From Tubulanus polymorphus (taxonomy: Eukaryota > Animalia > Nemertea): DNA of 64,000 nt. Every line of letters starts with the position of its first letter. The first letter of the stretch is position 1. The notes under the pieces were generated by a model. It worked only from the letters and a program-made list of their open reading frames with translations, was not told the DNA's origin and made no database searches. Below are positions 17,241 through 59,733 of this stretch, piece by piece. The stretch lies in the NCBI RefSeq assembly GCF_964204645.1, contig NC_134028.1, positions 1,302,001 to 1,366,000 of the forward strand. The letters run 5' to 3'. The translations under genes were made by a program, and so were the position numbers.

Positions 17241-17427
17241 TTAACCAGCACCGTTCAGTTCACTTGACCCAGTTTACCATAATTGGCAAAAAAAGTAATT
17301 TATACAGAGTTGATTGTAATTCGAGAAAAGAACACGGCTAGAAATTGATTGAAGAAATATAAAATCCGTTGGTAATCCTGGTCAGGCAGGGAGTTTATTG
17401 ACGTGTTCACTCCGCTATACGAGTTGC

Positions 17428-18050
17428 ATATGAGCTATCCACGTTCCCGTCTCGACCCGTTACTGTCTCGACCCGTTCCCGTCCCGACCCTACCGTACAA
17501 TAGCGCCACCGCAGTCGATAATTTGAACTAAAACACTTCGGCGCGTATCGGATTCGTTTTTCGCATGTTATAAATGGTTGAAGAACGATCAGTGAAACAT
17601 ACCAACAATTTTAAAAAGTCAATTAGATTTTATAAAACTTTTCATTAAAAAGATCGAATGAAGAAAACGCCTCCAATGTCAACAGAGGTAAAAATTCAAG
17701 ATGCGAAGTTAGCAATTTCCAGTCGAGATTTCCTCCCAGAATATTACTGAAGTGGGTTTAAACTGTTTTCAAATGTAATGTTGAATAAATCATACGAGTT
17801 TAATTATTTTGGTTTCAAGTTTCAAATGATATCAACTTTCGGCTTCAAATCTCTCAAAACTCAGTTCTAAAAATGACCCCTCTCGGCCGGGGGCATTTTG
17901 TTTAGGGTACATTTTATTTTGCCATTAATCAGTTCGAATTCATCAAATTTATGAAGAAAATTAATGTATGAATTTTGCAAAAAAATAAAGATGATTGTTA
18001 AATTTATAACGCGTTGTCTTTCTCTACCAGATCCCGTCGGTCTTTCTCCG
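17428..18050 (+). repeat. Left (sub)terminal inverted repeat, unique portion
   Basis: Reverse complement of 32980-33784 (e.g. tacaatagcgccaccgcagtcga, aattagattt, ttcgaattcatcaaatttatgaagaaa) with substitutions and indels. Confidence 0.92.
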
Positions 18051-18052
18051 AT

Positions 18053-19555
18053 GGACATGTTCCGGTCTCGACCCGTCACCTGTCTCTACTCTCTAGACAG
18101 TCCCGTGGACGCTATGTTCCCGTCTCGACCCCTCACATCTGTCTCTACTCTCTACACAGTCCCGCGGACACTATGTTCCCGTCTCGACCCTTCAAATCTG
18201 TCTCTACTCTCTACACAGTCCCGTGGACACTATGTTCCCGTCTCGACCCTTCACATCTATCTCTACTCTCTACACAGTCCCGTGGACACTATGTTCCCGT
18301 CTCGACCCTTCAAATCTGTCTCTACTCTCTACACAGTCCCGCGGACACTATGTTCCCGTCTCGACCCTTCAAATCTGTCTCTACTCTCTACACAGTCCCG
18401 TGGACGCTATGTTCCCGTCTCGACCCTTCACATCTGTCTCTACTCTCTACACAGTCCCGTGGACCCTATGTTCCCGTCTCGACCCTTCAAAACTGTCTCT
18501 ACTCTCTACACAGTCCCGTGGACCCTATGTTCCCGTCTCGACCCCTCACATCTGTCTCTACTCTCTACACAGTCCCGCGGACACTATGTTCCTGTCTCGA
18601 CCCTTCAAATCTGTCTCTACTCTCTACACAGTCCCGTGGACCCTATGTTCCCGTCTCGACCCCTCACATCTGTCTCTACTCTCTACACAGTCCCGTGGAC
18701 CCTATGTTACTGTCTCGACCCTTCACATCTATCTCTACTCTCTACACAGTCCCGTGGACGCAATGTTCCCGTCTCGACCCTTCAAAACTGTCTCTACCCT
18801 CTACACAGTCCCGCGGACACTATGTTCCTGTCTCGACCCTTCAAATCTGTCTCTTCCCTCTACACAGTCCCGCGGACACTATGTTCCCGTCTCGACCCTT
18901 CAAATCTGTCTCTACTCTCTACACAGTCCCGCGGACACTATGTTCCCGTCTCGACCCTTCAAATCTGTCTCTACTCTCTACACAGTCCCGCGGACACTAT
19001 GTTCCCGTCTCGACCCTTCAAATCTGTCTCTACTCTCTACACAGTCCCGCGGACACTATGTTCCCGTCTCGACCCTTCAAATCTGTCTCTACTCTCTACA
19101 CAGTGCCGCGGACACTATGTTCCTGTCTCGACCCTTCGAATCTGTCTCTACCCTCTACACAGTCCCGTGGACCCTATGTTCCCGTCTCGACCCTTCAAAA
19201 CTGTCTCTACTCTCTCAACAGTCCCGTGGACGCTATGTTCCCGTCTCGACCCTTCAAACCTGTCTCTACTCTCTCAACAGTCCCGTGGACCCTATGTTCC
19301 CGTCTCGACCCTTCAAAACTGTCTCTACTCTTTCAACAGTCCCTTGGACGCTATGTTCCCGTCTCGACCCTTCAAATCTGTCTCTACTCTCTACACAGTC
19401 CCGTGGACCCTATGTTCCCGTCTCGACCCTTCAAATCTGTCTCTACTCTCTACACAGTCCCGCGGACGCTATGTTCCCGTCTCGACCCTTCAAATCTGTC
19501 TCTTCTCTCTACACAGTCTCATGGATATGTTCGTGTCTAGAGCCTTCACATCCGT
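18053..19555 (+). repeat. Left 59-bp tandem array, about 25 units plus a degenerate inner unit
   Basis: Unit cagtcccgtggacgctatgttcccgtctcgacccttcaaatctgtctctactctctaca; gtctcgaccc recurs at an exact 59-bp period from 18122 to 19479. Confidence 0.97.
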
Positions 19556-19989
19556 TTGAAGACAGTTTGTGGGACACCCTGACATATCTAATCGGTTTGT
19601 AATATTTCCAGTCAGTGGGACGAACCTTTTTAAAAAATGGAAATGAATATTACAGGTGGTCAAATATTTATTGATTAAAATCATGAAAAATCTACAAAAT
19701 CGATGCTGACATGCTGAATACTGATACATCTACACATAAGGCAAATTTCTACAAATTTAGTGCAATTCTCAGGAATACGTATGTACTAAACACATTAACA
19801 TGCAAACTCATTAAAATGAACGCAAGGAACCAAATTATTACAACCGACAGTTGTCATATTGGCCGAAATTCTAGGTTTTTGATAACCAATAAATCGGTAT
19901 ATCAGAAGTATAACTAGGCTCCACTGTTTCTTGGCTGAATCCCGTGGTCTTCAATACGAAAGGCTTTCATTCTCATCTGAATTTCTTTA

Positions 19990-22900
19990 TCATTTCTGCC
20001 TGTTGTAGCCCGACAAATCGTGAATGACAAATCATAACTTATATCGAAATATCTTGATACAAGATAACACACAGCCTCCATCTTTATGGCTTCAATAAAC
20101 CTGTGTCCACTAAAAATGTAACGACATGAAAAAACTGTTGATTATAGTATATGCATGAAACGCATACTGTAAGAGCAAGTGAGGTTTTACGTATGGGACT
20201 CGACCTTACCTTATCCAGTCTTTCAGAATGTACGATATGATTTTATTCGGTGCCATAAATGGAATGCGTACCGGTGGGTACTGTATATACATACTTAAAA
20301 AAAGGAAATTAAAATAGCAACAAATCATTGATATCGAATCATGATAGTGATCTTTTGTGATGGTGCAGCGAATCATATTCTTGGTGATCCGTACCTTGGG
20401 TGTAGATAAATCTTTTTGCATATTGCTTGCGTGGCCCAAACATAGATGAAGTTAAGAGCACTTCGACGAATAACCATTACACCGTGTCCTTTGCTTGATA
20501 GTGGTTCAGGACGTATATATTTTTGGACAAGCCTGGAAAATAATAAAATATTATTATTCGAATTCAAAGTGGGCCTATACAAAATGTCGTGTGCGATGTA
20601 ACTTTGACTTTACTTTATAAGGAAACATTAGTATGTAAATTAATAAAATTAGTGATAAATTTGTGTAATAAGCATCACAGAATTATCAAAACTTAGCGAA
20701 TATTTGATATTTTCGGATGGTTTTCAGCATGTACAAGTACTGCCGTACCGTACATATAATATGCTTTCATCTTAAGAGCAATTAAAAGTCACAATTGCAA
20801 GCAGAATATAAATCAAAGCTTACAAACACTGTTCTTGAGTCAATGTATTTGTTATATATCGGTTGAGGTCATCAAGCTGTAAAAAATGAAAATACTGTAC
20901 ATCAAAATAGATTCACATGGGCACATTTACAATCAATCCGTCGTTGGCAAGATTAAGCTGAAAGCCACCAAGGCTCTTTTGCCTTTTAGGATATATATGA
21001 AACTGACGTGAGATCTATTTGTTACTTGAATAGCATGCTTTACGCAAGTTGAAAATAAAATTCTTACAATTGCGCGCCGTTTTTCCAATAAATACTTGAG
21101 AGGGACTTGGCGACCATCATCGTTTTCTGAAGTGTCTGGTTCAATTTTCTGAAAGCACGCCCCACAGATCATGTAGTCAGGAAACCTTAAAAAATACATA
21201 TATTTTCACATGGGGTGGTGAGTGATAAAGTTTTGCTCACTAACTCTCATATCCTACACCCACCTTATCTCAAGTTCTTTGCAACAGATACATTTTTTCT
21301 CATTTCCATCTTTAAACAATGCATCCTAAAATTCGATATTATTCAAGACATAGCAAAAAGCAAACAGATTCAACTGGCACTGAAATCTGTTTTGCGAGGC
21401 CCATCGAATAAAATCAACAAGAACACAAAAGCCGATTAGTCCAAAAAAAAACTTGAATTACCTCCCATGTTCTTCGCAACTTCTCAATTTGGCACATGGG
21501 ACAACGGTAAGAATAATTGAACGTGTAGTCATCCGAATTTCCACCTATACACTCTGGGTGTATGGCCCAGTTGCAATTAAATCCATTGCAAACTATCACT
21601 TTCTTACTACAAAAACAAAAAGATTTTTGGTGTCCTTTACAAACCCACCATACCTGATGGGAGCGAAGTTTTAACTGAATGCGAAACTCACCATTTATTT
21701 GAACAGAAACAAAAGATCTTCCGTTTTCCACCTAACTCACTAACATCTTTTAATCTGCAAACTGGAACCTAAAACAAAGTGTGCCATTTTTCATTTATCA
21801 TGGACTTAACACAACATTAACGCATATATTGTAAATAACAAACCTGACGAGCTCTTGTTACTGCAAGCCCCCGAATTGTTTTCTAAAATATTGGATATCA
21901 AATTTTGATTGATGCAAGGCATAAATAATCAATCACTTCGAAATAGAAGATTCACTACATAGATCCTTTTCGACGTTTGATACAAAAATACAATAATCTA
22001 GGATAAGCTGCAAAGGTAAATACGTATAAAAGTATGATTTATAGGAGATCCAGTTACAGGGTTTCCAGTTAAAATTTGATTCTAGACTTAATACAATTCA
22101 AATCAACTAAAGGGCTAAATAACTGTGGAACCGGTCATTTGTTTTTTCCAAGTACCATTCTTTTACTGCTGATACATTTCTCACAAGTGAAACCAATTCG
22201 TTCTGCCTCCTGTTGCGACAAGTCACCAAGTCCTATACATACAGGATGGTACCACTCAACGCACCTTTCGCATGCGATGTATAAGCTACAAAATATCAAA
22301 TATCTAATGTAATTCGGAATTATAATAATCTTATTAGAGCTATGTATGTAATCATGATACACTAACCCTCCTGTATCGATTTTTTTACAAATACAATATT
22401 TCGCAGCTGACTGTGGCAATTCATAGAAAAAACTGCTGCGTCGTCTTGTCTGAAAAAGTGCATTTGATATTTTCAATTATCTGCATTCTACGTTAAACTA
22501 AACTTCTTCAATCTGCTACCACCGGTACCATACCTTCTTTGGATTTTCTCGGAGCTTCACCGTGGTTCTCGTTTCCAAGACCTGTCTTTGCTATAAAAAA
22601 GTGACATGACATACAATTTTTAACGAGCACAAAGACACCATTCCTTAATTTTGATACATATCAGGAATGCATGAAAAAAATACTTGTAGAGAATGCACCT
22701 CAAAAAAAAGTTCATCGCGCGTAGACATTTCTGGTGTTGGGTCATTCACCTATAAATCAAAGAGATCACATGAAATTAGTGAAACCTACATGCTGTTTGA
22801 ATATGGCTCAGATAACTAAGATATACCTCATATATTATATTTTCCTCGCCTATTTGCTGTTCGCGTTCATCGCGAGTAGACATTTCTGGTGTTGGGTCAT

Positions 22901-25900
22901 TCAGCTATAAATATAAAAGTAAGTAGAAACTGTAAATTAGTAAAACTTTATCCTCACATTTTCAACTAATGTTGTTACTTCATATTTTCATATGGCCTAC
23001 CTCTAATGATGTTGCTGGGCAAGAGGCATTGGTCACAGAATATATAGCTCCATTGCTGCTTTGATTTTTCAGATAATCTAGTCCTCGGAAGAGATCAAGA
23101 TCGATAGGCAGGGGCTGACTGGAGTCAATCAGACGGAAAGTATTGTCATTAAACTCCAGTACCAACCAGTGGTCTGTATCACTGGGCTTAATAATCATCT
23201 TTCTTTTCAAGGATGTTTGCAAAAATGCACTTGTCAACAGTTCAGTCAATTCTTCATAGGTCCTTGAGTTTTTTACACCTGATACAATGTTCAGAACTTG
23301 AAACCCACGTTGCTCTAGACATTCCATGATCACATCCATCGAATAAAATCCCTCTCTATCCCTCAGGGCAGATATCATGCAGGTTGGGCCAATTCCTGGA
23401 TTTTGCAACTGCCTAATCCACATTTCGTCTGATACACGATCCATATCATATACTGAAACACTGAACGAGCCATCTTCATCTGATCCAATCGCATTATTGA
23501 CCGCACAGAGTCCGCAGTAGTTGGTGGATCCTTGGATCTGCATAAAATCTCCTCGTTGAGTTTTCACTGATTTCACTTCAGCATGTCTGTTTGGTAATGC
23601 TGTTTGACCAATAACTTGAGCCGCGTATCTGAGGTTGCTGTGGGCTGCAAGCAGTTCATCACCATTTAGATTATCGAAGTCAAGGTTTCGGAAAATATCA
23701 CTGACATCCGAATTTAGAACTGCACGTAGATATGATGTACATTCGCTTCTCTGTCGATCACTATTATGACTGACTTTGGGTACAAAGGAAGACGATGTAG
23801 TATTTTCTGTATGACGTGAAATATTTGGAACAGAATTCGATGAGTTCGGGAAACTTTCGTTGCCGTGGAGAGAAGCATCGAGTCCACGCGTCATATCGCG
23901 AACAAACGCCCGTCCAAACTGATCTCGATCAAGCATGTCATTGCCTAGGTTTTCTCTAAGTTTATTTACGAGGGCATTGTTTATTTCTTCATTTCTCAAG
24001 TGCGAAGCGAGCCGGAAAACAAACATGTGAGTCGCCGGATTCATATTGTTGAGGAAATGAAGATTCTTTTTTCGGTTACTGAATTCCTGCTCAACCCGCT
24101 GACTGTCAATTAAACCTCCAACATTATCCAAAAGAGATATCCTCCGTAAAATCTCAACAGGACTCTTACAGTTTTCTTGATGAAACCAATCGTACAGGAT
24201 GTAGTGGTGAGATGAACGTGTTATTGGATGATCCTCATTTCCTATAGGTTCTGTGTTTGGTTCATAAATATATTTCAAGAATGTGGCCTCAAACGTGATT
24301 TGTCTTGTCTTTGCTTGCGCAATATTTTCATCGGAACTCTCTGCTAATCGACCATCGTGGGGTCGATACATATCACCATATCTGGAATTGGCAAACCTCG
24401 CCACAAGGTGAGCACTGTCACAGATAGATATTGTTGGTCGATGTTTCAGTGATCTCTCCAAGTCAACGTAGTCGCGAGGACTTTCACCCCGAAAATTGTT
24501 CTTTATGCAATATGTTACACCGTGGTCGCAACATCCAACTGCCCAGCCACCTTTCAGAAAAAAAAAACGCAAAATAATGCTATGTTTATGCGATTTTTGC
24601 GATGACAATGCGCGCGAGTGCGCGGTGTGTTCCTTACCGGTATGGCCAAAAATATCTTCATATAGGCTGTCGAACTTTGACCGAGACATCGACATACTTC
24701 TGAGGCGTAGAATCATGTCATTCGTAGACCCCTTGGAATCTACTTTCGCCTTCTTACAAAACTTTCTGATTTCCTTTACCTGCATCACAATGCGATTTAT
24801 ATAACGTATAGGACCTACCATTGTGTTAGTACTGACTAGTACATCATTTTACTTTCACAAAAGTGGAAGGTTTTACATATGCAATGCATAAAATGTGTAC
24901 CTTCTCATTTTTCAGGAGATGCTCCAAAGTATCAGGATGGATAGGCTCAACTCCTTCAGAACCACTATCTGTCGAGCACTTTTCAAATTCAGTGTTTATC
25001 AGAATTTCTGACTTTCTGGTATATTTCCCAATCCAAGGACTCCAGCATTCAAATGAAGGCCTCACAACATGTTCTACAAAAATTGAATACGTTTATCAAA
25101 AAACTTTTGAAACCGCATTTCACACACATGATCTGCCAGATGAAAATTTTATACATAATTAACATGATGTTGGATTTGAGTTTCTACCTTTATGGCATTT
25201 CGATCCTTTGCTCACTATTTCCTTTTCGATATCATTCCAGAAAGAAACGCAGTCGACTTCCTCGTTCAAAGATACTGGTGGCGCCAAATCTGAAACTGAA
25301 ATAAGAGATAATTCATTCACAGTTCTATCTTATATAGACTAGATATAATGTATATCCCTATGGGAGGGGGTGCGTGTACACCCTCCTAAAATTGCCAAGC
25401 TTCTTTGTGATTTGGGAAAATAAATATTAAGCTGATACCTAAGAAAGTTTAAATTCGTCTCTTGTTCTCTGTATTTCCAAGAATGAGTTAACGTTTTCCG
25501 AGGAGGTTTTTTCGGGGTGTCTCGTAATTATATGATATGCCCTATTTTGGGGGTTCACCCTACCTGAGTCAGACCCTGGATTCCCTTGATCAAACTGAAA
25601 CTAATACACAGAATACACAGAATACGCAGAACAGTCATAGACTCACGGTTGTAACGAAAACAGGCTTTTCGGAATGTATCCCATATCAATATGGGTGGGT
25701 AGTATCCACAGGATATGCAATAGAAGTCATAGCTATGACTTGTCATAGCTTCATAGTGGAGATACCCTTGCTGTAACGAGTTTAAAGGTATTTGCTCTCC
25801 TGATAGAGACGTCAGAATATTAATTGAGGTTTGTATAGCCACGTGATTCTGAAAATACAAGCAAAAATCATAAAATATGTAATTAATAATTAAATGATAA

Positions 25901-28525
25901 GGTATTAAATGATATTACATTTTTCGATGCGTTGATAAAACATAGTCAAAAAGTGATGATCACATTTGCAAAATATATCATAAATCACCATATAATAATT
26001 ATCTAACAATGTTATGAGTAAATACCTTTATTCCTTCTCGGATGGTCTTGCACAGCTCTAATGTCATAAATGTAGAATTGTTGAAGTTATGAATGCCATC
26101 TTGCCATTCCTGATAGCGATATGTCATCCCACATCCAATGCATTTCTTTATATGAACAGGTATATCTACCAAATCAATTGAAGAATAATATATACGATAA
26201 AAAGAAACTGAATATTCACGAATATAAATAAGATAAACCTTCATATAATGTCCTACGTACTTTTATGAACTTCATGAATACCAAAGATTCTACCAGAGCC
26301 AACTAATTGAGGGGACAATGTAGCATTGCAAGAAACGCATGACTCTTCACGAGGAACTATTGTTGAAATCTGTGCAACCTTGGTAGTGAGATCAGATGGT
26401 AAATCAACAGGTACCAGTTTTCTTTCAATTACGTACTGCAATTCTTTTTCATCAAGTTCGTTGTGGTTCGTTGTGGTGCATGGTTGGTTGGTTCCTGTTG
26501 TAACCGTAGCTCTATTATATTGGTTGTTATACCATGTACAACAAACTTTATGGACGCAGAATTTAGAGCCTTTGATACAATTACATCGATACAGTTTTCT
26601 CATACTGTCATACACCACAACCGTACGGCCCAATTTCGAATAATATCTCTTATCCTTGCACAGAACAGAAAAATACCGATAACGATCAGACTGATCAAGA
26701 ATCAAAGAGATTAGAGGAACACCATCTCTCAATGACTTTTCATACAGAGCTTCGACTTTTGGAATATGCTCGGCTTTAACGATGTTTCCATCAGCTAGTT
26801 CATTCAAATATTTCACATCCAATATTGGATTGTTCACAGTTGCGGTTACATAACTGACGGATTTTAGATGGGCGCATTCAAATGAATGATTACTTGAGAT
26901 GGCAGCCGCATGCTTTGCATCCCTACAGCTCCTCAATTCACAGAAAATTTCTGAATTTTCTGTCGTTTTCTTTTTTACGTGAATCGGATTTGAATGTCCG
27001 ATCATCGATGGGAAAACGGCAAATATCCCCTGTCTATTGTCGACGCAAACTGCTCGGTGGTGATGTCGCTCAGTGATCCTGCTTGCCGCCGCAGCTTTAT
27101 TTTTCTGACATATATGGATATGTATTTTCATCCATTTCGAAGACAAAACTTTTTCACAATGGGGACATTTCTCCGTTTTCTTTTGTTTGGTCGCATTGTT
27201 GCAGCTATTAGTGTTGCACTGTTGTTTTTCTCTTACATGAGAAACAACAGGTTGCTGTTTTGGATGACAACATTTTTCCATATGTTTAGAGAGTCTTCTT
27301 CTGTCGTGTGCTTTGTGATCACAAAAAAAGCAATGGTAGTGAGATCGCTTCATACAGTTTTGATGACAGATAACACTATATAATCTTGAAATGGAAAAAA
27401 AGAAATATAAAAATCTACCTTTTGCAAATAGTCGCAATTGAGCAAAAACGCGATTTCCAGTAATTATAGGGATATGTATGGTGGCTGATTCGGATCACGT
27501 AAAAAAAGAGAAATTATCCCACTCGATCTCCACCAATTTTTTTTACATATTAAAAACGTTGTTTTACGCTACGTCAAGAACAAAGTTTAATTTAGAACGA
27601 AAAACTGGTTTTAACGTGGCATTAAAAAGAAAAATGTAGAATTCGAAAATTGGTGGAAACCGAGTGTCATCTATTATTTTTTTAATGTGGCCCGAATCAC
27701 GAACCAGCCACAATAGACTATATGAGATCAGTTCATTCCCCGCTTTCCTGGGACCGGTTCCATAATCAGGGCTTAGACTTAAGCGGCCGTCGCGTTATAT
27801 AGCCTTGCATAAATCACAACATAACGAAACAAGACTACAAAACGCACTAGTTCAATGGCACGAAGCTCTTTGAAAACCATCGTTTCGATAATTTTGGATT
27901 CCATATAGTTTTCGAAACAATTACATTCATAATTTATTTCAATTCACCATTTTGAAATATTCACGTTTCTATTTTTTTTGGAAGAGAAAAATATATTGTT
28001 TATTCTTTATGTATCATTGATCGAATCTGAAATTAGATCGTATACCTCAGCTCAGTGACATTGAAAATTCGTTGATAGACTTTTTATTTCAGATGATTCT
28101 ATAGTGATGGCCGCTTGCTCTGGAGGTTTTCAGTAATGAAAATGAGTCAATTTTCATCTAAATGATGTGCCCGACAAAAAACGTTTTTACCTCATCGGTC
28201 AGATTTTTCATCACCCGTTGAGAAACTAATCGATTCAATTTAATGTATATATAAACCAAAAATGGAATACACAAGAAATTTAAAACCTAAAGAAGACTCA
28301 CCGGTCTGAATCGTCTCTGTCCCTCAGAGGTACGGGTATTCTGGTCGTCCAGTGCACCTGCGACAAGTGTTGGTCGACATGATGTTTTTTCTTAGGCTTA
28401 TACCTGACGTTGCTACATAAAGAGCAGTGGTACCTTTCACTTGGAGGTCTGTCGATGCAACAGGTCAAAAAACAAGGCTGGAGCCCAGCCTTCAAGTCGG
28501 ACACATTCTTGAAGAAAGTGGCCAT
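19990..28525 (-). CDS. Multi-exon KDZ (Zisupton/HMGXB3-like) transposase: C2H2-like Zn fingers, SWIM, CxC4, SAP, KDZ core, Josephin-like protease, two PHD fingers
   Basis: In-phase GT-AG exons include 28302-28525, 26261-27384, 26026-26165, 25647-25848, ~24901-25074, 24638-24779, 23001-24550, several small exons, and a last exon ending TGA at 19990. Motifs: SWIM CNCIKGSKFCVH; CxC4 CGMTYRYQEWQDGIHNFN and CISCGYYPPILIWD; WSPWIG..NTEFEK; SAP VKEIRKFCKKAKVDSKGSTNDMILRL; KDZ GGWAVGCCDHGVTYCIK..GESPRDYVDL, YDWFHQ, SQRVEQ. Small exons at 25190-25590 and 20200-22900 are less certain. Confidence 0.85.
27481..27711. mobile_element. Imperfect inverted-repeat (MITE-like) insertion in intron 1 of the transposase gene
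   Basis: gtggctgattcggatcac..cactcgatctccaccaatttt versus aaaattggtggaaaccgagtg..gtggcccgaatcacgaaccagccac. Confidence 0.55.
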
Positions 28526-29040
28526 TATTTTGAATATATTTCTACTATGCGGACATCACAAAACCGAGCACATCAATAACGCAAAGTTTTCGGTCTCTGG
28601 TATCTTCAAAGCAGTATTTGTAATACCAACGTTTAAGACCATGGATCGTGTCCCCGATAAGAAACGATTGAAATGAGCGTTTGTTTCAGTTTTCTATATG
28701 TTTTTTAAGAGTTGAGGTTGACGGGAGTTACTCAATTAGAGCATACCAACGTTAGTGATACAACAGTTCTGTCAACACTAAGAAACCATTAAGCATTTGC
28801 CAGGTTTCTACGTTGTACATCTTCTAGGCTATATATGACAGCAATGCATTAAAACCATTTGTGATTAATTATATGCAACATCCTATGTTCTAACCGTCAT
28901 AAACAGTTCCCACAAACACTGAAATAAATGTGTTTCGATGCTTATGTACCGTAACGCGACGATGAATTTCATTAGCTATAATCGTTTGTATACATTTTAC
29001 ATAACTTGAACTTGAACCCATCGAAGTCTAATCGATGAGA

Positions 29041-29118
29041 GGCGCGGTGGCCGAGTGCATTATGCCGCAGGTCGCTGGTCTCTTCAATTCACGGTTTGGT
29101 TCAAACCCTGGTGGCGAC
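29041..29118 (+). other. Degenerate tRNA-like sequence (Pol III A/B boxes) inside the transposon
   Basis: ggcgcggTGGCCGAGTG..GGTTCAAACCC; no clean cloverleaf. Confidence 0.4.
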
Positions 29119-29328
29119 AATATTTCTCGGTCGAAGGTTCTTTTCTCCATTTAATTAGGAAAAAGAATCATCGAACCCTACGTGGCGCTTAGCGGTTTAA
29201 GAGTTTAAAAATAAGTCTAAAATAAGTCTTATTACGGTAAACAGCATTATTTACAGTGCACGGGAAATTATAACTTTTGGGAGTAGAACGTGGTTTTCTG
29301 AATCTCCGGTCGCCGGAGACAGTTTTAT

Positions 29329-32300
29329 GGGTCGACTAGATGGGAACGACAGGTGTGACGGGTCCAGGCGGGAACATAGGGTCCACGGGACTGTGTAGAG
29401 AGTAGAGACAGGTTTGAAGGGTCGAGACGGGAACATAGGGTCCGCGGGACTGTGTAGAGAGTAGAGACAGATTTGAAGGGTCGAGACGGGAACATAGCGT
29501 CCACGGGACTGTGTAGAGAGTAGAGACAGTTTTGAAGGGTCGAGACGGGAACATAGCGTCCACGGGACTGTGTAGAGAGTAGAGACAGATTTGAAGGGTC
29601 GAGACGGGAACATAGCGTCCGCGGGACTGTGTAGAGAGTAGAGACAGTTTTGAAGGGTCGAGACGGGAACATAGCGTCCACGGGACTGTGTAGAGAGTAG
29701 AGACAGATTTGAAGGGTCGAGACGGGAACATAGCGTCCACGGGACTGTGTAGAGAGTAGAGACAGATTTGAAGGGTCGAGACGGGAACATAGCGTCCAAG
29801 GGACTGTTGAGAGAGTAGAGACAGTTTTGAAGGGTCGAGACGGGAACATAGGGTCCACGGGACTGTGTAGAGAGTAGAGACAGGTTTGAAGGGTCGAGAC
29901 GGGAACATAGGGTCCAAGGGACTGTTGAGAGAGTAGAGACAGATTTGAAGGGTCGAGACGGGAACATAGGGTCCACGGGACTGTGTAGAAAGTAGAGACA
30001 GGTTTGAAGGGTCGAGACGGGAACATAGCGTCCACGGGACTGTTGAGAGAGTAGAGACAGTTTTGAAGGGTCGAGACGGGAACATAGCGTCCACGGGACT
30101 GTGTAGAGAGTAGAGATAGATGTGAAGGGTCGAGACAGGAACATAGGGTCCACGGGACTGTGTAGAGGGTAGAGACAGATTCGAAGGGTCGAGACAGGAA
30201 CATAGTGTCCGCGGCACTGTGTAGAGAGTAGAGACAGTTTTGAAGGGTCGAGACGGGAACATAGGGTCCACGGGACTGTGTAGAGAGTAGAGACAGATTT
30301 GAAGGGTCGAGACGGGAACATAGGGTCCACGGGACTGTGTAGAGAGTAGATACAGGTTTGAAGGGTCGAGACGGGAACATAGGGTCCGCGGGACTGTGTA
30401 GAGAGTAGAGACAGATTTGAAGGGTCGAGACGGGAACATAGCGTCCACGGGACTGTGTAGAGAGTAGAGACAGTTTTGAAGGGTCGAGACGGGAACATAG
30501 CGTCCACGGGACTGTGTAGAGAGTAGAGACAGTTTTGAAGGGTCGAGACGGGAACATAGCGTCCACGGGACTGTGTAGAGAGTAGAGACAGATTTGAAGG
30601 GTCGAGACGGGAACATAGTGTCCGCGGGACTGTGTAGAGAGTAGAGACAGATTTGAAGGGTCGAGACGGGAACATAGTGTCCACGGGACTGTGTAGAGGG
30701 TAGAGGCAGATTTGAAGGGTCGAGACGGGAACATAGGGTCCACGGGACTGTGTAGAGGGAAGAGACAGATTTGAAGGGTCGAGACAGGAACATAGTGTCC
30801 GCGGGACTGTGTAGAGAGTAGAGACAGATTTGAAGGGTCGAGACGGGAACATAGGGTCCACGGGACTGTGTAGAGGGAAGAGACAGATTTGAAGGGTCGA
30901 GACAGGAACATAGTGTCCGCGGGACTGTGTAGAGAGTAGAGACAGATTTGAAGGGTCGAGACGGGAACATAGGGTCCACGGGACTGCGTAGAGGGAAGAG
31001 ACAGATTTGAAGGGTCGAGACGGGAACATAGGGTCCACGGGACTGTGTAGAGAGTAGAGACAGATTTGAAGGGTCGAGACAGGAACATAGTGTCCGCGGG
31101 ACTGTGTAGAGAGTAGAGACAGGTTTGAAGGGTCGAGACGGGAACATAGGGTCCGCGGGACTGTGTAGAGAGTAGAGACAGGTTTGAAGGGTCGAGACGG
31201 GAACATAGGGTCCGCGGGACTGTGTAGAGAGTAGAGACAGTTTTGAAGGGTCGAGACAGGAACATAGGGTCCGCGGGACTGTGTAGAGAGTAGAGACAGA
31301 TTTGAAGGGTCGAGACGGGAACATAGCGTCCGCGGGACTGTGTAGAGAGTAGAGACAGTTTTGAAGGGTCGAGACGGGAACATAGCGTCCACGGGACTGT
31401 GTAGAGAGTAGAGACAGATTTGAAGGGTCGAGACGGGAACATAGCGTCCACGGGACTGTGTAGAGAGTAGAGACAGATTTGAAGGGTCGAGACGGGAACA
31501 TAGCGTCCAAGGGACTGTTGAGAGAGTAGAGACAGTTTTGAAGGGTCGAGACGGGAACATAGGGTCCACGGGACTGTGTAGAGAGTAGAGACAGGTTTGA
31601 AGGGTCGAGACGGGAACATAGGGTCCAAGGGACTGTTGAGAGAGTAGAGACAGATTTGAAGGGTCGAGACGGGAACATAGGGTCCACGGGACTGTGTAGA
31701 AAGTAGAGACAGGTTTGAAGGGTCGAGACGGGAACATAGCGTCCACGGGACTGTTGAGAGAGTAGAGACAGTTTTGAAGGGTCGAGACGGGAACATAGCG
31801 TCCACGGGACTGTGTAGAGAGTAGAGATAGATGTGAAGGGTCGAGACAGGAACATAGGGTCCACGGGACTGTGTAGAGGGTAGAGACAGATTCGAAGGGT
31901 CGAGACAGGAACATAGTGTCCGCGGCACTGTGTAGAGAGTAGAGACAGTTTTGAAGGGTCGAGACGGGAACATAGGGTCCACGGGACTGTGTAGAGAGTA
32001 GAGACAGATTTGAAGGGTCGAGACGGGAACATAGGGTCCACGGGACTGTGTAGAGAGTAGATACAGGTTTGAAGGGTCGAGACGGGAACATAGGGTCCGC
32101 GGGACTGTGTAGAGAGTAGAGACAGATTTGAAGGGTCGAGACGGGAACATAGCGTCCACGGGACTGTGTAGAGAGTAGAGACAGTTTTGAAGGGTCGAGA
32201 CGGGAACATAGCGTCCACGGGACTGTGTAGAGAGTAGAGACAGTTTTGAAGGGTCGAGACGGGAACATAGCGTCCACGGGACTGTGTAGAGAGTAGAGAC

Positions 32301-32977
32301 AGATTTGAAGGGTCGAGACGGGAACATAGTGTCCGCGGGACTGTGTAGAGAGTAGAGACAGATTTGAAGGGTCGAGACGGGAACATAGTGTCCACGGGAC
32401 TGTGTAGAGGGTAGAGGCAGATTTGAAGGGTCGAGACGGGAACATAGGGTCCACGGGACTGTGTAGAGGGAAGAGACAGATTTGAAGGGTCGAGACAGGA
32501 ACATAGTGTCCGCGGGACTGTGTAGAGAGTAGAGACAGATTTGAAGGGTCGAGACGGGAACATAGGGTCCACGGGACTGTGTAGAGGGAAGAGACAGATT
32601 TGAAGGGTCGAGACAGGAACATAGTGTCCGCGGGACTGTGTAGAGAGTAGAGACAGATTTGAAGGGTCGAGACGCGAACATAGGGTCCACGGGACTGTGT
32701 AGAGAGTAGAGACAGATTTGAAGGGTCGAGACGGGAACATAGGGTCCACGGGACTGCGTAGAGGGAAGAGACAGATTTGAAGGGTCGAGACGGGAACATA
32801 GGGTCCACGGGACTGCGTAGAGGGAAGAGACAGTTTTGAAGGGTCGAGACGGGAACATAGCGTCCGCGGGACTGTGTAGAGAGTAGAGACAGTTTTGAAG
32901 GGTCGAGACGGGAACATAGCATCCACAGGACTGTGTAGAGAGTAGAGACAGATGTGACGGGTCGAGACAGGAACATC
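29329..32977 (-). repeat. Right 59-bp tandem array (inverted relative to the left), 61 units plus degenerate inner units
   Basis: gggtcgagac occurs from 29419 to 32959, exactly 60 x 59 bp apart. Confidence 0.97.
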
Positions 32978-33784
32978 GGAGTAAGATAACGCGTCATGAA
33001 TTTAACAATCATCTTTATTTTTTTTTGCAAAATTCATACATTAACTTTCTTCATAAATTTGATGAATTCGAATTGATTAATGGCAAATAAAACATGCCCC
33101 AAACAAAATGCCCCGGGCCGGGTCGTTTTTAGAAAAAAACGGTTTGAGAGATTTAAAGAAAGTTGATTTTATTTTATAGAAACCAAAATAATTACACTCG
33201 TGTAATTTATTCAAGATTATATTTGAAATTAGTTTAGCTTTACCAGTAAATATATATTATTTCTAGGAGGAAATCTCGACGGGAAATTGCTTACTTCACT
33301 TCTCGAATTTTTTGTCCTGTTGACAGTGGAGGCGTTTTCTTGGCAAAAGTGCAGATCCACACCTCTCGTGATTGACGCAATCTGCTGAATGACAGAATCC
33401 AGGCTAAAATCTTTCTATGGAAGATACCCGGGTGAAGATATCTAAAAATTAACCAATGGCAATGTACTGAATTGCTGAATTTTGAATCTGAAATATTGAT
33501 ATCATATGTAGGCCCTAATTGATTGAACCGTTTATGCGGAGAGGTGTGGATCTGCACTTAAGCTTATACCGTTTCCTTCTTCGATCTTTTCAATGAAAAG
33601 TTTTCAAAAATCTAATTGACTTTTTAAAATTGTTGGTAGGTTCACATGCGAAAAACGAATCCGATTCGCGCCGTAGTTGTTTAGTTCAAATAATCGACTG
33701 CGGTGGCGCTATTGTACGGTAGGGTCGAGACGGGAACGGGTCGAGACAGTAACGGGTCGAGACGGGAACGTGGATGGCTCATAT
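32978..33784 (-). repeat. Right (sub)terminal inverted repeat, unique portion, with a ~240-bp insertion
   Basis: Reverse complement of 17428-18050 except ~33342-33580. Confidence 0.92.
33347..33559. mobile_element. MITE-like insertion in the right arm with perfect 21-bp inverted ends
   Basis: aagtgcagatccacacctctc (33347-33367) and gagaggtgtggatctgcactt (33539-33559); absent from the left arm. Confidence 0.7.
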
Positions 33785-35285
33785 ATATATGCGCTATACA
33801 GCCGTGTTTACATTTACTGATGTGTATTAATATCGCGAGATGGCAGCACCATCTGGTCCGCAAAAATTGCCCAAACCTTCCAATTGTTTACTAAATGAAA
33901 TATAACTTGCAATTAGAAAGCTAATTTTATAATCAATATGCGTATATGGGTAATTTCGTTTCTAATTCATCTTATCTATGGCCAATAAAAATATAGTTGA
34001 TATTGAAATGGACTGGTTGCCTGTCGAATTCTGCGCCACCTGTATTCGAGACCGGCAACTAGTCTATTGTCGGGCACATGGCCGGACTTTCAGAAGTTCC
34101 GGATACGACCACCGTACCACTCGGCGCGGCCTCGCACGATATGCAAATGCGTTGTTTAGGGTGTGAATCAGAACGTAGTACTTTGTTTCGGGATTCAACC
34201 AATGTTTTTTTTTTACAAAGAACGAGTTGTGTGTTATTGTAACAAAGAGAAATTGTAATTCCCTTGATTGTGCGTTCTGGCACTCTCGGTCTCCGGCGGC
34301 TCCAAGTCCCGCCGGTGTCATAGAGTGAAATGCCTCCCACCGCATGGCAATAGCTCTCAGGATTAAGGGTTATGGTCAGCAGTCCTAATATGACTCTCAA
34401 CTCGTTTAGAACGAACAGATTCTGATTCTCTTTACTTGGTTTTAGATGAGCGCGTCTATGGTTGAGAGTCACAGACCTTTTCAAAGGTAACATATAAGTC
34501 AAATGCAATGATTTACTTGGCTTGTTGACTTATCTCCGTGTTTAGTCGGTTTTCGATAAAACAAATGTGGCTGGTTTCCGGCCCATCTAACGATGCGATT
34601 TTTCAGTAAACCTATTTGATTGGCTGCAATACAAATGTGACTGGATTCGACCACGGGCCCGAGTAACAAACTTTTTTTCAATATGTTCCAATGATAGGAA
34701 ATTTATTATCAGTTCACGTAAAATCTATCAAATATACATGTACAACAAACAACTGATTACATTGGACAAAGTCTCATTCAACATGAATGAATTAATCATA
34801 AAAATTCCGGATGAACACAGAAACAACTTAGTGATACATGTGCCGTACAATGGTATTTCAATCAGAAATGAATCATATATCTAAAACCAATAATATACAT
34901 GTATCCAGGTTTTAAAAAATACGGACAACCAGTCGCCAAAGAGCTGTTTGAACACTGCTACAACAAAAAGAATTAAGTTTATGGAAAAGTTAAACTCTAA
35001 ACACCTTTGAGCAACTGGTCCCACTATTACAGCGAGAAAACATTTACTATATAAAGTACTCGATAAAACGAAACGTTGTTATGGAATTACACTAAAAACT
35101 ACTTGGTTCTTAAAAATTTTAAACATCACAGCGCAACCCCGTTACAACGAACTTCACTGTTTCTAAAAATCTGTTTGTTTACAACCGATAGTTCGTTATC
35201 TGTACTATGAAATTATCAAACTAATCTAATAATAATAATGTTCTAATCTGCTGGATGAAATTCTAGTTTTCTTACCGATAGATCG

Positions 35286-38200
35286 TTATAACGCGTTTCG
35301 TTGAATTCCATGTAAACCGGAAAATGAAGACGAATAAAGTATATCATTTCTCGCCATCAAATGTGCCCTTGGTGTTCTCGGAGGATAAACATTATTCACC
35401 CTGTTTGGATAACCGAACGGTAGAGGTGGTCTGAAGAAGTTCAAATCTCTATAATTCGTCGTCGGATTTCGGTGACGATGAGTTGGATATATGTGATACG
35501 ACGAATTGACGGATGGAGGCGGTTTTAATTTAAAAAGATTATAGTTCGGTTGATTTTGAAGACGTTTCGCGCGGGAATTTGAACAGTTTTGAAGTTTAAT
35601 CGGTTTGTATAACGGTAACTGTAGTGATTGTGACGATTGACGAGTCGTAATTGATTGCGTGCTAATTTCTCGAGTTAGTGTTGGAGATGTCTGTGTCTCG
35701 GCGTTTGACTTCTTATCTAACTCAGTTTGCACCGACACGTCCAATCTAATCGTTTTCGAGGGTATTCCACTGTCGTCGGAGCGAGAATGTTTTCTACTGA
35801 GATCGATCGGGATATTATGTAGGGTTTTCTCTCCTGTAAAGGAAAGATTTAAAGCTTCTTCTTGAAAAGTGGATCCATCCTGTCTTACACCGATACGTAG
35901 ATCAATCGGTTCTCCTCTATCAGTCGATGCAGGGACGCCAGCGAGGACCTCACTGGTTTTTATTTCTATTGGCTCTCCTTCATGAGTTGATGACGTTCTA
36001 TCAATTGACGTTTCTATTCTCTTGTTATGATGAGACTTCGTACCCTGAAAAGATATGACAAAGTTTTCATTCGATTTGTTTCAGAGGTTCATCTTTGCAG
36101 CAATCCCCGATTGTTACTCATTCTCCCCGCTGAACCACATAATCATCACAACAAAACATTCTGACTTTTAAAATATTGAATGCAACTTACAACGGGTTTC
36201 TTCGGAAACAACCCATCAACGTTTCGGTTCCTGAATTCAGCGGGTGACGCTTTCTTCGGAATCAACCCATCAACATTTCGGTTTCCCAATTCCGCTGGTG
36301 ACGCTTTCTTCGGAAACAACCCATCAACATTTTGGTTTCTGAATTCAACGGGTGACGCTTTCTTCGGAAACAACCCATCAACATTTCGGTTTCTTAATTC
36401 AGCGGGTGACGCGTTGATTATCGAGAACCATTTATCTATAACCTTATCAATGAGAGATGAATCTATAATTCGCGTTATGTTGTTGTTCGCGTCGTCCTCA
36501 GTTGAAATCATTGTAGATTCATCACAAATGTTCATGTTTTGTATTGGTTGGCGATTATCTACATCACTTCCACGCGAGAGAGCCCGTTGAAACTCCCTGT
36601 GCGCAGAGTGAATAGACCAACTACTACTTAGGTCTTCACAACTCTGTGATTCTTCACTAGTCGAGGTGTTTAACGTATTCCAAAGAAGCGTAGGCTTAGT
36701 TGTTGTAGATGCATGGTTGCATCCTCTTGAACCTCGATGCTCGGTAGAATCTGCTGGAACATTTACAATACTATTTTGTTGATATGTTGATATTGAATCT
36801 TGTTTGGAAGAGGCTGCTAGATTTTCGGGTTGGATGATAGATGAATGGGTCACTGGCGCAACTAGTTGAAGCGTCAACTCATCAGGTGACGAAACACACT
36901 GACGAGCTGCAGAATCTTGATGAAGATTATCAGTCGCAATAGAGGAGTCACGTTGAAGGGTCGCTTCATTAACAGGTGGCGAAACACACTGACTAGCTGC
37001 AGAATCTTGACGAAGATTACCAGTCACAATAGAGGAGTCACGTTGAAGGGTCGCTTCATCTACAGGTGACGAAACACACTGACTAGCTGCAGAATCTTGA
37101 CGAAGATTATCAGTCACAATAGAGGAGTCACGTTGAAGGGTCGCTTCATCAACATGTGGCGAAACAAACTGACTAGCTGCAGAATCTTGACGAAGATTAC
37201 CAGTCGCAATAGAGGAGTCACGTTGAAGGGTCGCTTCATCCGGGACAGCACACATAGATTGAGTCACTACTGGGGATTTTTGTTGAGGAGCAATGGATTC
37301 AGCTTTAGATGACGATGTTGATGATTTGTGGCTTGTGATGATCGTTTCATCGATTAAGACAGGTGGATCATTCGTATGAGAACAGAGCAGTGTTTCAGTT
37401 GAATCGACAGAATACCGCCTCACAACTTCATCTATGAGATTTTCTAAATTGGAAATTTCTCGATCCGACATTGCACGATTTTTTATCTTTCGTTTTTTCT
37501 TTATTGGACTAACGATGTAATATTGATTTCCACCAATTAACCGGAGTTTTATCGGCAGCACCATCGACGGAGCAACGTCAAAATCATCATCTACCGTACT
37601 TGACATAGGACGTACGACCAGTTCGTTCTGTCGCATCCTTTTTCCATTTTCGTTTTCAGTATCAAAACTGAGTTTCCTTTTCAACGTTTCGATGTTTTCG
37701 GATTCATTTTGTGAGTTATATTTACGATTTTTCCATGAACTTTCGAACAATACGGTTTCCGGTGCAGGATCCGTTTCGCTTTCGTAAAACACAGTCAGAT
37801 TATCATCGACAAGTTCTGATGAAGGAAACGTAATGGAACTCGAATTTTCATTTGACACACTGAATGTCAATCCGCTAGTTCCATCACTGACAGCAGCATC
37901 ACCGTATTTCAGAAATTCCAAAGTGCCTTTCATCGGTGACCTAGATTGGTCAGGTACATATAATTGTAAACTTTCGATCAAATCCACTCGCGTCGAGATT
38001 ACGTCACTGAGAATTGCGTCACGATATATTTCTTTTCTTCTTTTAAGCATTCGATTTTTGATCGATGCTGACGAGTCGTAATCGACAACTCGTCTGGTGG
38101 GATATCTAGTGCTTGTACAGTCATCATTCATGCAGGCTGATTTACATGAACTTAATGACATATTCTGGTCAATTGTTGAAGCCGTTAGTTCATTCTCATC

Positions 38201-41200: not shown

Positions 41201-41720
41201 AACGCGAGTTAATACAACCTTCAGATCTTCGTGAATATTGAATTTTCGTCTGAGTTCATCCTCGCGGGTATCTCTATCAGATCGATGCATTCTGGTATTC
41301 AATATCTTATCATCGGAATCATCTACAATACAACCAAATATACATTTACTTTGAACATTAGCAACAACGATGAGAGACAGCTAGCGGAATCATCGAATCA
41401 AGCATTTTATCTACATTGTTACGATAAAGAAATTTACCACTACTTAAACTGTTCGATCTTTGACCAACAGTCACGGACCGAAGTTGTCTGTGGCAAAGAC
41501 GTTTTTTCGTGGATCCACAAACTCGGCAAGGTTGTATCGAAAGTCTCTTTCCCGACACTGGTGACCAAACCGCTGCCCACTTACTTTCCATGTTTGAAGG
41601 CGGGGGACTCGGGGGTGGGCTATCAGGAGAATAGTCGAGACATCCCGAACCAAGTGAGTATGAATGACGCATAGCACTGTCATCAGATCCAGAATGGTTG
41701 AATTTAGATGAATTTCTCAT
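35286..41720 (-). CDS. Large (~2000 aa) acidic, low-complexity, probably nuclear protein of unknown family
   Basis: Three in-phase exons with canonical sites: 41438-41720, 36191-41322 (5.1 kb) and 35286-36044. Contains NLS-like PIKKKRKIKNR, PIDLR/PIDLS motifs, TQT motifs and several internal repeats. No globular domain recognised. Confidence 0.75.
36197..36412 (-). repeat. Coding tandem repeat, 54 bp / 18 aa (ASPAELRNRNVDGLFPKK) x4
   Basis: Visible in DNA and in the 1718-aa ORF. Confidence 0.9.
36880..37240 (-). repeat. Coding tandem repeat, 90 bp / 30 aa (DEATLQRDSSIATGNLRQDSAASQ..) x4
   Basis: Visible in DNA and in the ORF. Confidence 0.9.
39540..40390 (-). repeat. Coding compound tandem repeat (APEIDLI(VI)EE..) with about 17 copies of the core
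   Basis: Repeated aatctcaggagc core, frame preserved throughout. Confidence 0.9.

Positions 41721-43996: not shown

Positions 43997-59733
<15,737 letters not shown>

What the first reader, a model, noticed from the sequence alone, without database searches (positions are those of the whole stretch)
23050..23545. Josephin/ataxin-3-like deubiquitinase domain fused behind the transposase core
Seen: in the same exon and frame as the KDZ core are QIQGSTNYCGLCAVNNAIG, DREGFYSMDVIMECLEQRG, DHWLVL and FRLIDS. Known: ataxin-3 has QEGSLCAQHCLNNLLQG, DDSGFFSIQVISNALKVWG, HWFTV and WFNLNS, with a Cys-His-Asn/Asp triad. All three positions are present here (C, H, D). The protease passengers I know from Zisupton-type elements are Ulp1-like SUMO proteases, and I do not know of a Josephin fusion. 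Inference: the element may remove ubiquitin from chromatin or from itself to counter silencing or degradation.
Basis: partly seen in the sequence, partly recalled or inferred. Interest (0 to 1): 0.85.

Follow-up and report, generated by a model that had tools for sequence, protein, structure and literature searches.

The report
Zisupton transposase carrying a Josephin protease
A young, intact 16-kb jumping gene in an animal genome carries, inside its predicted transposase, a protease domain shaped like the human ubiquitin-removing enzyme ataxin-3, which likely lets the element strip destruction tags off its own machinery.

Summary
Window 23546-23034 (minus strand) encodes a Josephin-family cysteine protease domain: Pfam PF02099 above its cut-off, an intact Cys-His-Asp triad, and a confident model whose best matches are ATXN3L, ataxin-3 and JOSD2 (Z 16.1-14.6). 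It is not Ulp1.

The domain shares a 1550-nt exon with the rear half of the catalytic core of a predicted 15-exon, 1443-aa Zisupton/KDZ transposase that ends in two PHD fingers. The element spans 17421-33791. It has inverted ends, an 8-bp target duplication, and an empty site in other sequencing runs, so the insertion is polymorphic and probably recent.

The fusion recurs in ribbon worms and bivalves (14 of 80 relatives carry the KDZ core), and the two domains have diverged together. The same Josephin clade also sits on Ginger-like integrases, and in 7 of 80 relatives an Ulp1 domain follows it.

The likely role is a tethered deubiquitinase that protects the transposition complex. Activity, substrate and expression are untested. 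Josephin-like domains are already in print for Dualen and Chlamys retroelements, and other deubiquitinases for Helitrons and Ginger. I found no report for Zisupton. Verdict: a new variant of a known kind.

The parts
17413..17420 (.). Left copy of the 8-bp target site duplication (CGCTATAC)
   Evidence: Same 8-mer at 33792-33799; a single copy at the empty site in runs X1 and X3
17421..33791 (.). Whole Zisupton/KDZ-type DNA transposon, 16,371 bp
   Evidence: Duplication, inverted arms and empty site
17428..18100 (+). Left imperfect inverted terminal arm
   Evidence: 83% over 242 columns and 77% over 455 columns to the right arm; the outer 7 nt of the two ends differ
18057..19525 (+). Left subterminal array, 59-bp unit, about 25 copies; its 12-bp core also occurs three times in the outer arm (putative transposase binding sites, inferred)
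29348..32976 (-). Right subterminal array, same 59-bp unit inverted, about 61 copies
32931..33784 (-). Right imperfect inverted terminal arm
33792..33799 (.). Right copy of the 8-bp target site duplication
21414..28525 (-). Predicted transposase gene: 15 exons, 1443 aa, 14 of 14 introns GT-AG, no internal stop (my hand-built model, no RNA support)
   Evidence: exons 7-8 and 12-15 also match Tubulanus P0001
26261..27384 (-). Exon 2: Cys/His-rich N-terminal region with a SWIM-like CxC...CxH motif starting at codon 26585 (read by eye)
   Evidence: no Pfam hit; Atlas lead to a CxC4-bearing cluster at 0.88
26026..26165 (-). [quoted passage not shown]
   Evidence: Pfam PF18717, E 7.8e-8, 32.7 bits against cut-off 26.9
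24638..24779 (-). Exon 7: SAP-like segment
   Evidence: Weak Pfam SAP match, E 0.057, below cut-off
23955..24550 (-). Rear half of the KDZ catalytic core in exon 8: Asp749, DxxH from 825, Glu858
   Evidence: Asp749 in 8 of 8 rows that cover it, DxxH and Glu in 13 of 13; Atlas 0.95 to KDZ-related clusters
23034..23546 (-). Josephin-family cysteine protease domain (residues 1040-1210): Gln1044, Cys1050, His1165, Asp1180
22156..22449 (-). PHD finger 1 (exons 12-13), closest to the BPTF-type PHD
   Evidence: Pfam PHD E 5.4e-6; best PDB sequence hit BPTF PHD E 4.3e-5, and 3.7e-9 for the Tubulanus homologue
21414..21768 (-). PHD finger 2 (exons 14-15)
   Evidence: Pfam PHD E 0.0023, below cut-off; 50-62% identity to the second finger of P0001

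Best explanation
This is an intact Zisupton/KDZ-type DNA transposon whose predicted transposase carries a Josephin-fold cysteine protease with an intact Cys-His-Asp triad, and that domain likely acts as a tethered deubiquitinase that would cut ubiquitin off the transposase or its partners and so delay their destruction. Shown: the element, its duplication and empty site, the domain's family, the conserved triad, and the fusion in other animals. Predicted: the splicing, the fold, and the catalytic roles. Inferred: the transposase binds the repeated 12-bp cores in the ends, the first PHD finger reads methylated histone H3 and steers the complex to open chromatin, host ligases tag the DNA-bound complex with ubiquitin (and SUMO), and the Josephin domain removes the tag in cis. 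Relatives that also carry Ulp1 would remove both tags.
For: Family: PF02099 above cut-off. A profile of 51 rows hits ataxin-3 (E 9e-9), ATXN3L and JOSD2 and nothing else below E 0.1, aligning the Cys, His and Asp with ataxin-3 Cys14, His119 and Asn134 as counted from the printed alignment. Model pLDDT 94. The six best Foldseek rows are human Josephins. VIA-align Z is 16.1 (2.8 A, 154 residues), 14.7 and 14.6, against 11.5 for the best non-Josephin. Constraint: in 51 rows, Cys in 46 (3 gaps, 2 Tyr), His in 50, Asp or Asn in 49, Gln in 47 (4 gaps), an aromatic residue after the His in 51. Mean pairwise identity is 31% in the domain against 14% in the linker. Old fusion: 14 of 80 relatives carry the KDZ core upstream, with named hosts Tubulanus, Lineus, Sinanodonta and Crassostrea. 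Core and protease identities correlate (rho 0.80 for 13 rows, 0.69 for the 11 closer rows). An Ulp1 domain follows the Josephin in 7 of 80 relatives, which argues that the two are not redundant (inference). Precedent: Helitron VTD domains cleave K48, K63 and K11 chains and are proposed to prevent proteasomal loss of transposition proteins (PMC9741609).
Against: No activity, substrate or expression data. Double-glycine C39 peptidases are the next fold neighbours (Z 11.5). Pfam finds a PHD in only 1 of the 14 KDZ-bearing relatives, though many of these are partial gene calls. The linker also correlates with the core (rho 0.41), so the correlation shows shared descent, not function. Contigs of three runs carry a stop at transposase codon 735, and run X1 also has a frameshift and two substitutions inside the protease, so sister copies decay. 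The idea that the target is the transposase itself rests on analogy only.
Confidence: 0.5

Rival explanations
1. The domain is a chromatin deubiquitinase. The PHD fingers dock the protein on histone H3 and the Josephin domain erases histone ubiquitin marks at the element or its target, which would counter silencing or ease integration.
For: The protease is followed by two PHD fingers in the window and in Tubulanus. The first finger is closest to BPTF, DIDO1, TAF3 and PHF2 fingers, which read H3K4me3 (own knowledge). Fungal KDZ elements carry TET/JBP enzymes proposed to counter silencing (PMC12730594).
Against: PHD fingers are seen in 1 of 14 KDZ-bearing relatives. An H3K4me3 reader points to active rather than silenced chromatin. 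PHD fingers also accompany Ulp1 in Ginger1, so they look like a general targeting part.
Confidence: 0.22
2. The protease is active but acts on another Gly-Gly substrate: a ubiquitin-like modifier such as NEDD8 or SUMO, or the transposase itself (self-processing).
For: Low identity to human Josephins and C39 double-glycine peptidases as next neighbours. Two of three Helitron VTD domains also act on NEDD8.
Against: Best matches are ubiquitin-cleaving Josephins by 3 Z units or more. Co-occurrence with Ulp1 makes SUMO less likely. The model has five Gly-Gly sites: the one at 705 lies in the catalytic core, the one at 849 is not kept in the alignment, and the one in PHD1 is not kept in Tubulanus.
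Confidence: 0.17
3. The domain is a ubiquitin clippase like some bacterial Josephins, cutting before the final Gly-Gly and so removing ubiquitin irreversibly.
For: Bacterial Josephins, several of them clippases, are in the fold neighbourhood (Z 10.1-11.6). The cleavage mode differs even between close bacterial relatives (bioRxiv 2024.07.24.604956).
Against: Conventional eukaryotic Josephins score clearly higher (Z 14.6-16.1). The two human Josephins tested in that paper lack clippase activity.
Confidence: 0.07
4. The domain is a passenger without a role: a chance capture, or a stretch that is spliced out.
For: No RNA evidence could be obtained. Sister copies in run X1 are broken in this domain.
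Against: Triad conserved across two phyla at about 31% mean identity. A 1550-nt stop-free exon. Database gene models of four named animals keep the fusion. The same X1-X3 contigs are also broken in the transposase core.
Confidence: 0.04

Closest known systems
Human Josephin (MJD) deubiquitinases: ATXN3L (PDB 3o65), ataxin-3 (1yzb), JOSD2 (6pgv); Pfam PF02099
   Same: Fold, Cys-His-Asn/Asp order, His-to-third-residue spacing of 15, the G-F-[FY]-S motif and the aromatic residue after the His.
   Different: 14-20% identity. Cys rather than His three residues after the catalytic Cys (43 of 51 rows; 0 of 80 relatives have the canonical CxxHxLNN). Clade-specific conserved Asp, Trp and Arg. No UIM or polyglutamine seen. 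Embedded in a transposase.
Josephin-related cysteine protease of Dualen non-LTR retrotransposons and of Chlamys-1_cBra Penelope-like elements
   Same: A Josephin-like domain on a mobile element's main protein, proposed to disrupt protein degradation (PMC8557442, passages).
   Different: Those are retroelements of green algae; this is a cut-and-paste DNA transposon of animals. Whether the domains share one origin was not tested (no Dualen sequence in hand).
Zisupton / KDZ DNA transposons
   Same: Inverted ends and 8-bp duplication (PMC12730594), multi-exon gene of about 1400 aa (PMC9297572), CxC4 plus SWIM plus KDZ core (bioRxiv 2024.08.15.608186), SAP.
   Different: Josephin and two PHD fingers at the C-terminus, and long 59-bp subterminal arrays. 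The passages I read mention F-box and TET/JBP cargo, not Josephin. The founding papers could not be read.
Ginger1 transposases with OTU, Ulp1 or Ulp1-PHD tails; Helitrons with OTU and VTD deubiquitinases
   Same: A transposition protein with a C-terminal ubiquitin or SUMO protease, sometimes with a PHD finger (PMC2836005; PMC9741609).
   Different: A different protease class. 'Josephin' does not occur in the main text of the Ginger paper, yet 2 of 80 relatives found here are rve integrases carrying this Josephin clade.
Bacterial Josephins (PcJOS, BpJOS, PaJOS)
   Same: Divergent Josephin fold outside the canonical host genes.
   Different: Lower structural scores than human Josephins. They are bacterial proteins, several with clippase activity. 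'Transposon' does not occur in that paper's main text.

Membership tests
Josephin / MJD proteases | Pfam PF02099 score at or above the curated cut-off | tested here: met
   28.3 bits against 26 on the domain; 24.9 on the whole ORF; 56 of 80 relatives match at E up to 0.01
Josephin / MJD proteases | Cys-His-Asn/Asp triad in that order, aligned with ataxin-3 Cys14, His119, Asn134 | tested here: met
Josephin / MJD proteases | Josephin papain-like fold | tested here: met
   pLDDT 94; Foldseek E 7.7e-7; Z 16.1, 2.8 A over 154 residues
Josephin / MJD proteases | Triad and oxyanion geometry in three dimensions | tested here: inconclusive
   Model coordinates were not examined. The Cys starts a helix, the His and Asp lie at the ends of neighbouring strands. 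The Gln is one residue further from the Cys than in ataxin-3.
Josephin / MJD proteases | Cleaves ubiquitin after Gly76 | not testable with these tools
   Needs an enzyme assay
Ataxin-3 orthologues | Josephin followed by UIMs and polyglutamine; canonical CxxHxLNN motif | tested here: not met
   None seen in the 1443-aa model (small exons 9-11 read by eye only); motif absent in the window and in 80 of 80 relatives
Ulp1 / Peptidase C48 | His-Asp-Cys order (own knowledge) and PF02902 match | tested here: not met
   Order is Cys-His-Asp; no PF02902 at E up to 10. Where relatives hit PF02902, it is a separate downstream region.
OTU proteases | Pfam OTU match | tested here: not met
   No OTU family at E up to 10
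Zisupton / KDZ transposons | 8-bp target site duplication | tested here: met
   17413-17420 and 33792-33799; empty site with one copy
Zisupton / KDZ transposons | Terminal inverted repeats | tested here: met
   Imperfect arms, 77-83% identical, outer 7 nt mismatched
Zisupton / KDZ transposons | CxC4 cysteine cluster | tested here: met
   PF18717 above cut-off
Zisupton / KDZ transposons | KDZ transposase domain PF18758 | tested here: inconclusive
   No hit for the window's exon-8 part; E 0.042 in the Crassostrea homologue; Atlas 0.95, with one cluster 16% PF18758; fold searches of the partial core gave nothing significant
Zisupton / KDZ transposons | SWIM and SAP domains | tested here: inconclusive
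   SWIM-like motif by eye, no Pfam hit; SAP E 0.057
Zisupton / KDZ transposons | Placement in the Zisupton branch rather than Kyakuja or Dileera on a transposase tree | not tested
   No reference KDZ sequences were retrieved (blank)
Ubiquitin clippases (bacterial Josephins) | Cleavage between Arg74 and Gly75 | not testable with these tools
   Needs probes or a model in complex with ubiquitin

The most novel reading that the evidence does not exclude
Animal DNA transposons keep their own old branch of Josephin enzymes, passed between Zisupton and Ginger-like elements and often paired with a SUMO protease. Tethered to the transposase and steered by an H3K4me3-type PHD finger, it erases host ubiquitin signals on chromatin at the site of transposition, possibly by irreversible clipping, which would make it the first eukaryotic ubiquitin clippase.
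Probability: 0.1. Interest if true: 0.85.

Novelty: new variant of a known kind. Interest (0 to 1): 0.52.

Why it matters
Transposons keep acquiring ubiquitin and SUMO proteases (OTU, VTD, Ulp1, Josephin-like), and nobody in the papers I read has shown what these do during transposition. This adds a Josephin branch of dozens of clusters at 50% identity to animal DNA transposons. It supplies an apparently intact, insertion-polymorphic element with defined ends, so a Cys-to-Ala transposition test is feasible. For ubiquitin biochemistry it is a fresh set of divergent Josephin enzymes, a family whose bacterial members turned out to have an unexpected cleavage mode.

Tried and rejected
1. Ulp1/C48 or OTU identity: rejected by Pfam and residue order. 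Neither family is among the listed fold matches, which alone would not exclude them.
2. Ataxin-3 retrocopy or recent host capture: rejected (14-20% identity; no canonical motif in 80 of 80 relatives). No cellular Josephin outgroup was in hand, so the tree is unrooted and the donor is unknown.
3. Domesticated single-copy gene: rejected by the duplication, the empty site, and element ends joined to other flanks.
4. Expression: no RNA holder was listed, and nothing from the guessed RNA run X4 could be laid. This is no evidence either way.
5. No whole genome is held, so copies could not be counted.
6. Searches for full-length KDZ proteins were blank. Scans of metagenome and viral contigs gave 54 and 13 pattern matches, none confirmed.
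7. A fold model of the partial transposase core (pLDDT 71) matched nothing significantly. RNase H and integrase rows at E 0.4 or worse are not evidence.
8. More than one exchange of the domain between KDZ and Ginger-like carriers: the free tree needs two changes, but a single KDZ clade is not rejected (p-AU 0.22, 13 against 4 rows).
9. The wide VIA search was not run for the protease model; only the second look at Foldseek's 1000 best.
10. No complex prediction was run, because no ubiquitin sequence was among the session's sequences.
11. Literature: ten searches. Whole-word Josephin plus transposase gave 6 papers, none by title about such a fusion. I did not search the pair Josephin plus Zisupton directly. 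Bohne 2012, Iyer 2014 and a review of eukaryotic transposon diversity were not held. The supplement of PMC12062965, a screen of domain fusions that might list this pair, could not be read. Repbase could not be checked.

Full report
Observation. The four motifs lie in one stop-free minus-strand frame, 24848-22980. The stretch 22983-23561 matches Pfam Josephin at E 1.9e-6, 28.3 bits against a cut-off of 26, with no Ulp1 or OTU family at E up to 10; the whole ORF scores 24.9 bits. A single-sequence search of PDB sequences found no Josephin, so the relationship is distant.

Family. A search of 1.84 billion representatives gave 80 relatives at E up to 0.001, of which 56 match Pfam Josephin at E up to 0.01. 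I aligned the window with 50 of the 80, chosen for coverage. The profile hits ataxin-3 (E 9e-9), ATXN3L and JOSD2 and nothing else below E 0.1. It places the Cys, His and Asp on ataxin-3 Cys14, His119 and Asn134, counted from the printed alignment. In the 51 rows the Cys is kept in 46, the His in 50, Asp or Asn in 49, the upstream Gln in 47, and an aromatic residue follows the His in all 51. The model is confident (pLDDT 94). Its six best Foldseek rows are human Josephins. VIA-align gives Z 16.1 for ATXN3L (2.8 A, 154 residues), 14.7 for ataxin-3 and 14.6 for JOSD2, then 11.6 for a bacterial Josephin and 11.5 for C39 peptidases. Identity to the human enzymes is 14-20%, and none of the 80 relatives has the canonical CxxHxLNN motif. 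This is a separate branch, not an ataxin-3 copy.

The gene. Guided by the Tubulanus homologue P0001, I built a 15-exon model from 28525 to 21414: 1443 aa, 14 of 14 introns GT-AG, no internal stop. It is a prediction without RNA support. In order it holds a Cys/His-rich region with a SWIM-like motif (by eye), a CxC4 cluster (PF18717 above cut-off), a putative first Asp, a SAP-like piece (weak), the rear catalytic core, a variable linker, a helical segment, the Josephin domain and two PHD fingers. The rear core and the protease share exon 8 (1550 nt). The core's Asp, DxxH and Glu are invariant where covered. Pfam KDZ itself is not hit in the window; the Atlas places the core with KDZ-related clusters at 0.95, and fold searches of the partial core were inconclusive. 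The first PHD finger is closest to the BPTF finger, an H3K4me3 reader by my own knowledge.

The element. Imperfect inverted arms and inverted 59-bp arrays of about 25 and 61 copies flank the gene. A 12-bp core occurs 92 times, all inside the element. An 8-mer is repeated at 17413-17420 and 33792-33799, the same distance from the two arms; the chance of an exact match at one given position is about 1.5e-5. Contigs of runs X1 and X3 follow the left flank to 17420 and continue straight into the right flank, which is the empty site; other contigs join element ends to different flanks. Summed depth in X1 rises from about 34 in the flank to 1000-2700 in the outer arm, which fits many short derivatives, although the tool warns that depth is no copy number. 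The element is therefore 17421-33791 and insertion-polymorphic. An 8-bp duplication with inverted ends, and CxC4 plus SWIM plus KDZ, are the Zisupton pattern (PMC12730594; bioRxiv 2024.08.15.608186). Sister copies are close but damaged: the X1 contig over exon 8 differs at 9 of 1684 letters, contigs of all three DNA-holding runs have a stop at codon 735, and X1 has a frameshift and two substitutions in the protease. Only the best-supported 40 variant rows were shown; 142 were not.

Spread. Fourteen of the 80 relatives carry the KDZ core upstream; most of the rest are short gene calls whose context I could not see. Named carriers of the fusion are Tubulanus, Lineus, Sinanodonta and Crassostrea. 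Across 13 rows that hold both parts, identity averages 42% in the core, 14% in the linker and 31% in the protease, and core and protease identities correlate (rho 0.80; 0.69 without the two most distant rows, with the linker at 0.41). Two relatives are rve integrases with this domain, which I read as Ginger-like; three more share their spacer region, one from the jellyfish Sanderia. Seven of 80 have an Ulp1 domain behind the Josephin. A tree of 52 of 81 domains (those covering 75% of the profile) puts the window with Tubulanus inside a supported 24-row group holding 11 KDZ carriers. One origin for the KDZ-borne domains is not rejected. The domain has thus been shared between two transposase types at least once; the direction is unknown.

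Mechanism. Shown: element, family, triad, conserved fusion. Predicted: splicing and fold. Inferred: an active deubiquitinase acting in cis. I rank protection of the transposition complex from ubiquitin-driven removal first (0.5), because that is what the tether suits and because Helitron VTD domains cut K48 chains (PMC9741609). Erasing histone ubiquitin (0.22), another Gly-Gly substrate (0.17), clipping (0.07) and a neutral passenger (0.04) follow. No result here separates the first two.

Comparison with print. Josephin-like domains are reported in Dualen and Chlamys retroelements with the same hypothesis (PMC8557442, passages; a figure legend in PMC9977147 lists the domain, passages). Ginger1 carries OTU, Ulp1 or Ulp1-PHD (PMC2836005, passages). 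I read passages only of PMC6431247, PMC9741609, PMC12730594, PMC9297572, PMC12062965, PMC3424704, PMC7599744 and bioRxiv 2024.08.15.608186. Of bioRxiv 2024.07.24.604956 I read the abstract, passages, section 9 and the first part of section 8. Ten searches showed no Josephin-Zisupton or Josephin-Ginger report, but the founding Zisupton and KDZ papers, one supplement and Repbase were out of reach. Earlier notes of this scan mention a Josephin-like domain on a Helitron and Ulp1-PHD tails on other Zisupton-like elements; these are unchecked leads.

Verdict. It is a new pairing of a known cargo type with a known transposon type, with a testable enzyme and an apparently intact element. New variant of a known kind; interest 0.52.

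Noticed in passing
window 17601 joined to 22661: Contigs of runs X2 and X3 leave the left arm at 17601 and continue with sequence matching about 22661. This suggests a deleted derivative that lacks the left array and both PHD fingers but keeps the protease exon.
   Followed up: partly
window 27376-28023, 21544-21867, 25432-25755, 28996-29300: Depth spikes and many loose ends inside the element point to small high-copy repeats nested mostly in introns and the 5' region; ARAGORN found no tRNA gene in the window.
   Followed up: no
window 22904-22699 (-): Exons 9 and 10 and their preceding acceptors are a tandem duplication of one small exon (printout), so the linker after the protease grew by exon duplication.
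   Followed up: no
window 36149-41380 (-): A 1744-codon stop-free, acidic, repeat-rich ORF with no Pfam match, just outside the element.
   Followed up: partly
window 35289-36080 (-): A 264-codon ORF with two PxDL[SR] motifs that resemble CtBP-binding motifs (recalled); no Pfam match. It may be an exon of the same gene as the long ORF.
   Followed up: no
window 44204-59769 (-): Exons with PDZ and FH2 matches, a Delphilin-like formin by my own recall; host gene, unrelated to the element.
   Followed up: partly
proteins P0040, P0063, P0060, P0077: Ginger-like integrase proteins (rve domain in P0040 and P0063) carry the same Josephin clade, P0063 with Ulp1 as well. I found no report of this pairing; their DNA context was not examined.
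   Followed up: partly
window 23755-23547 (-): A moderately conserved helical segment with an N-x-x-Y motif precedes the protease in both KDZ and Ginger-like carriers. It may be part of the mobile module and should be kept in expression constructs.
   Followed up: partly
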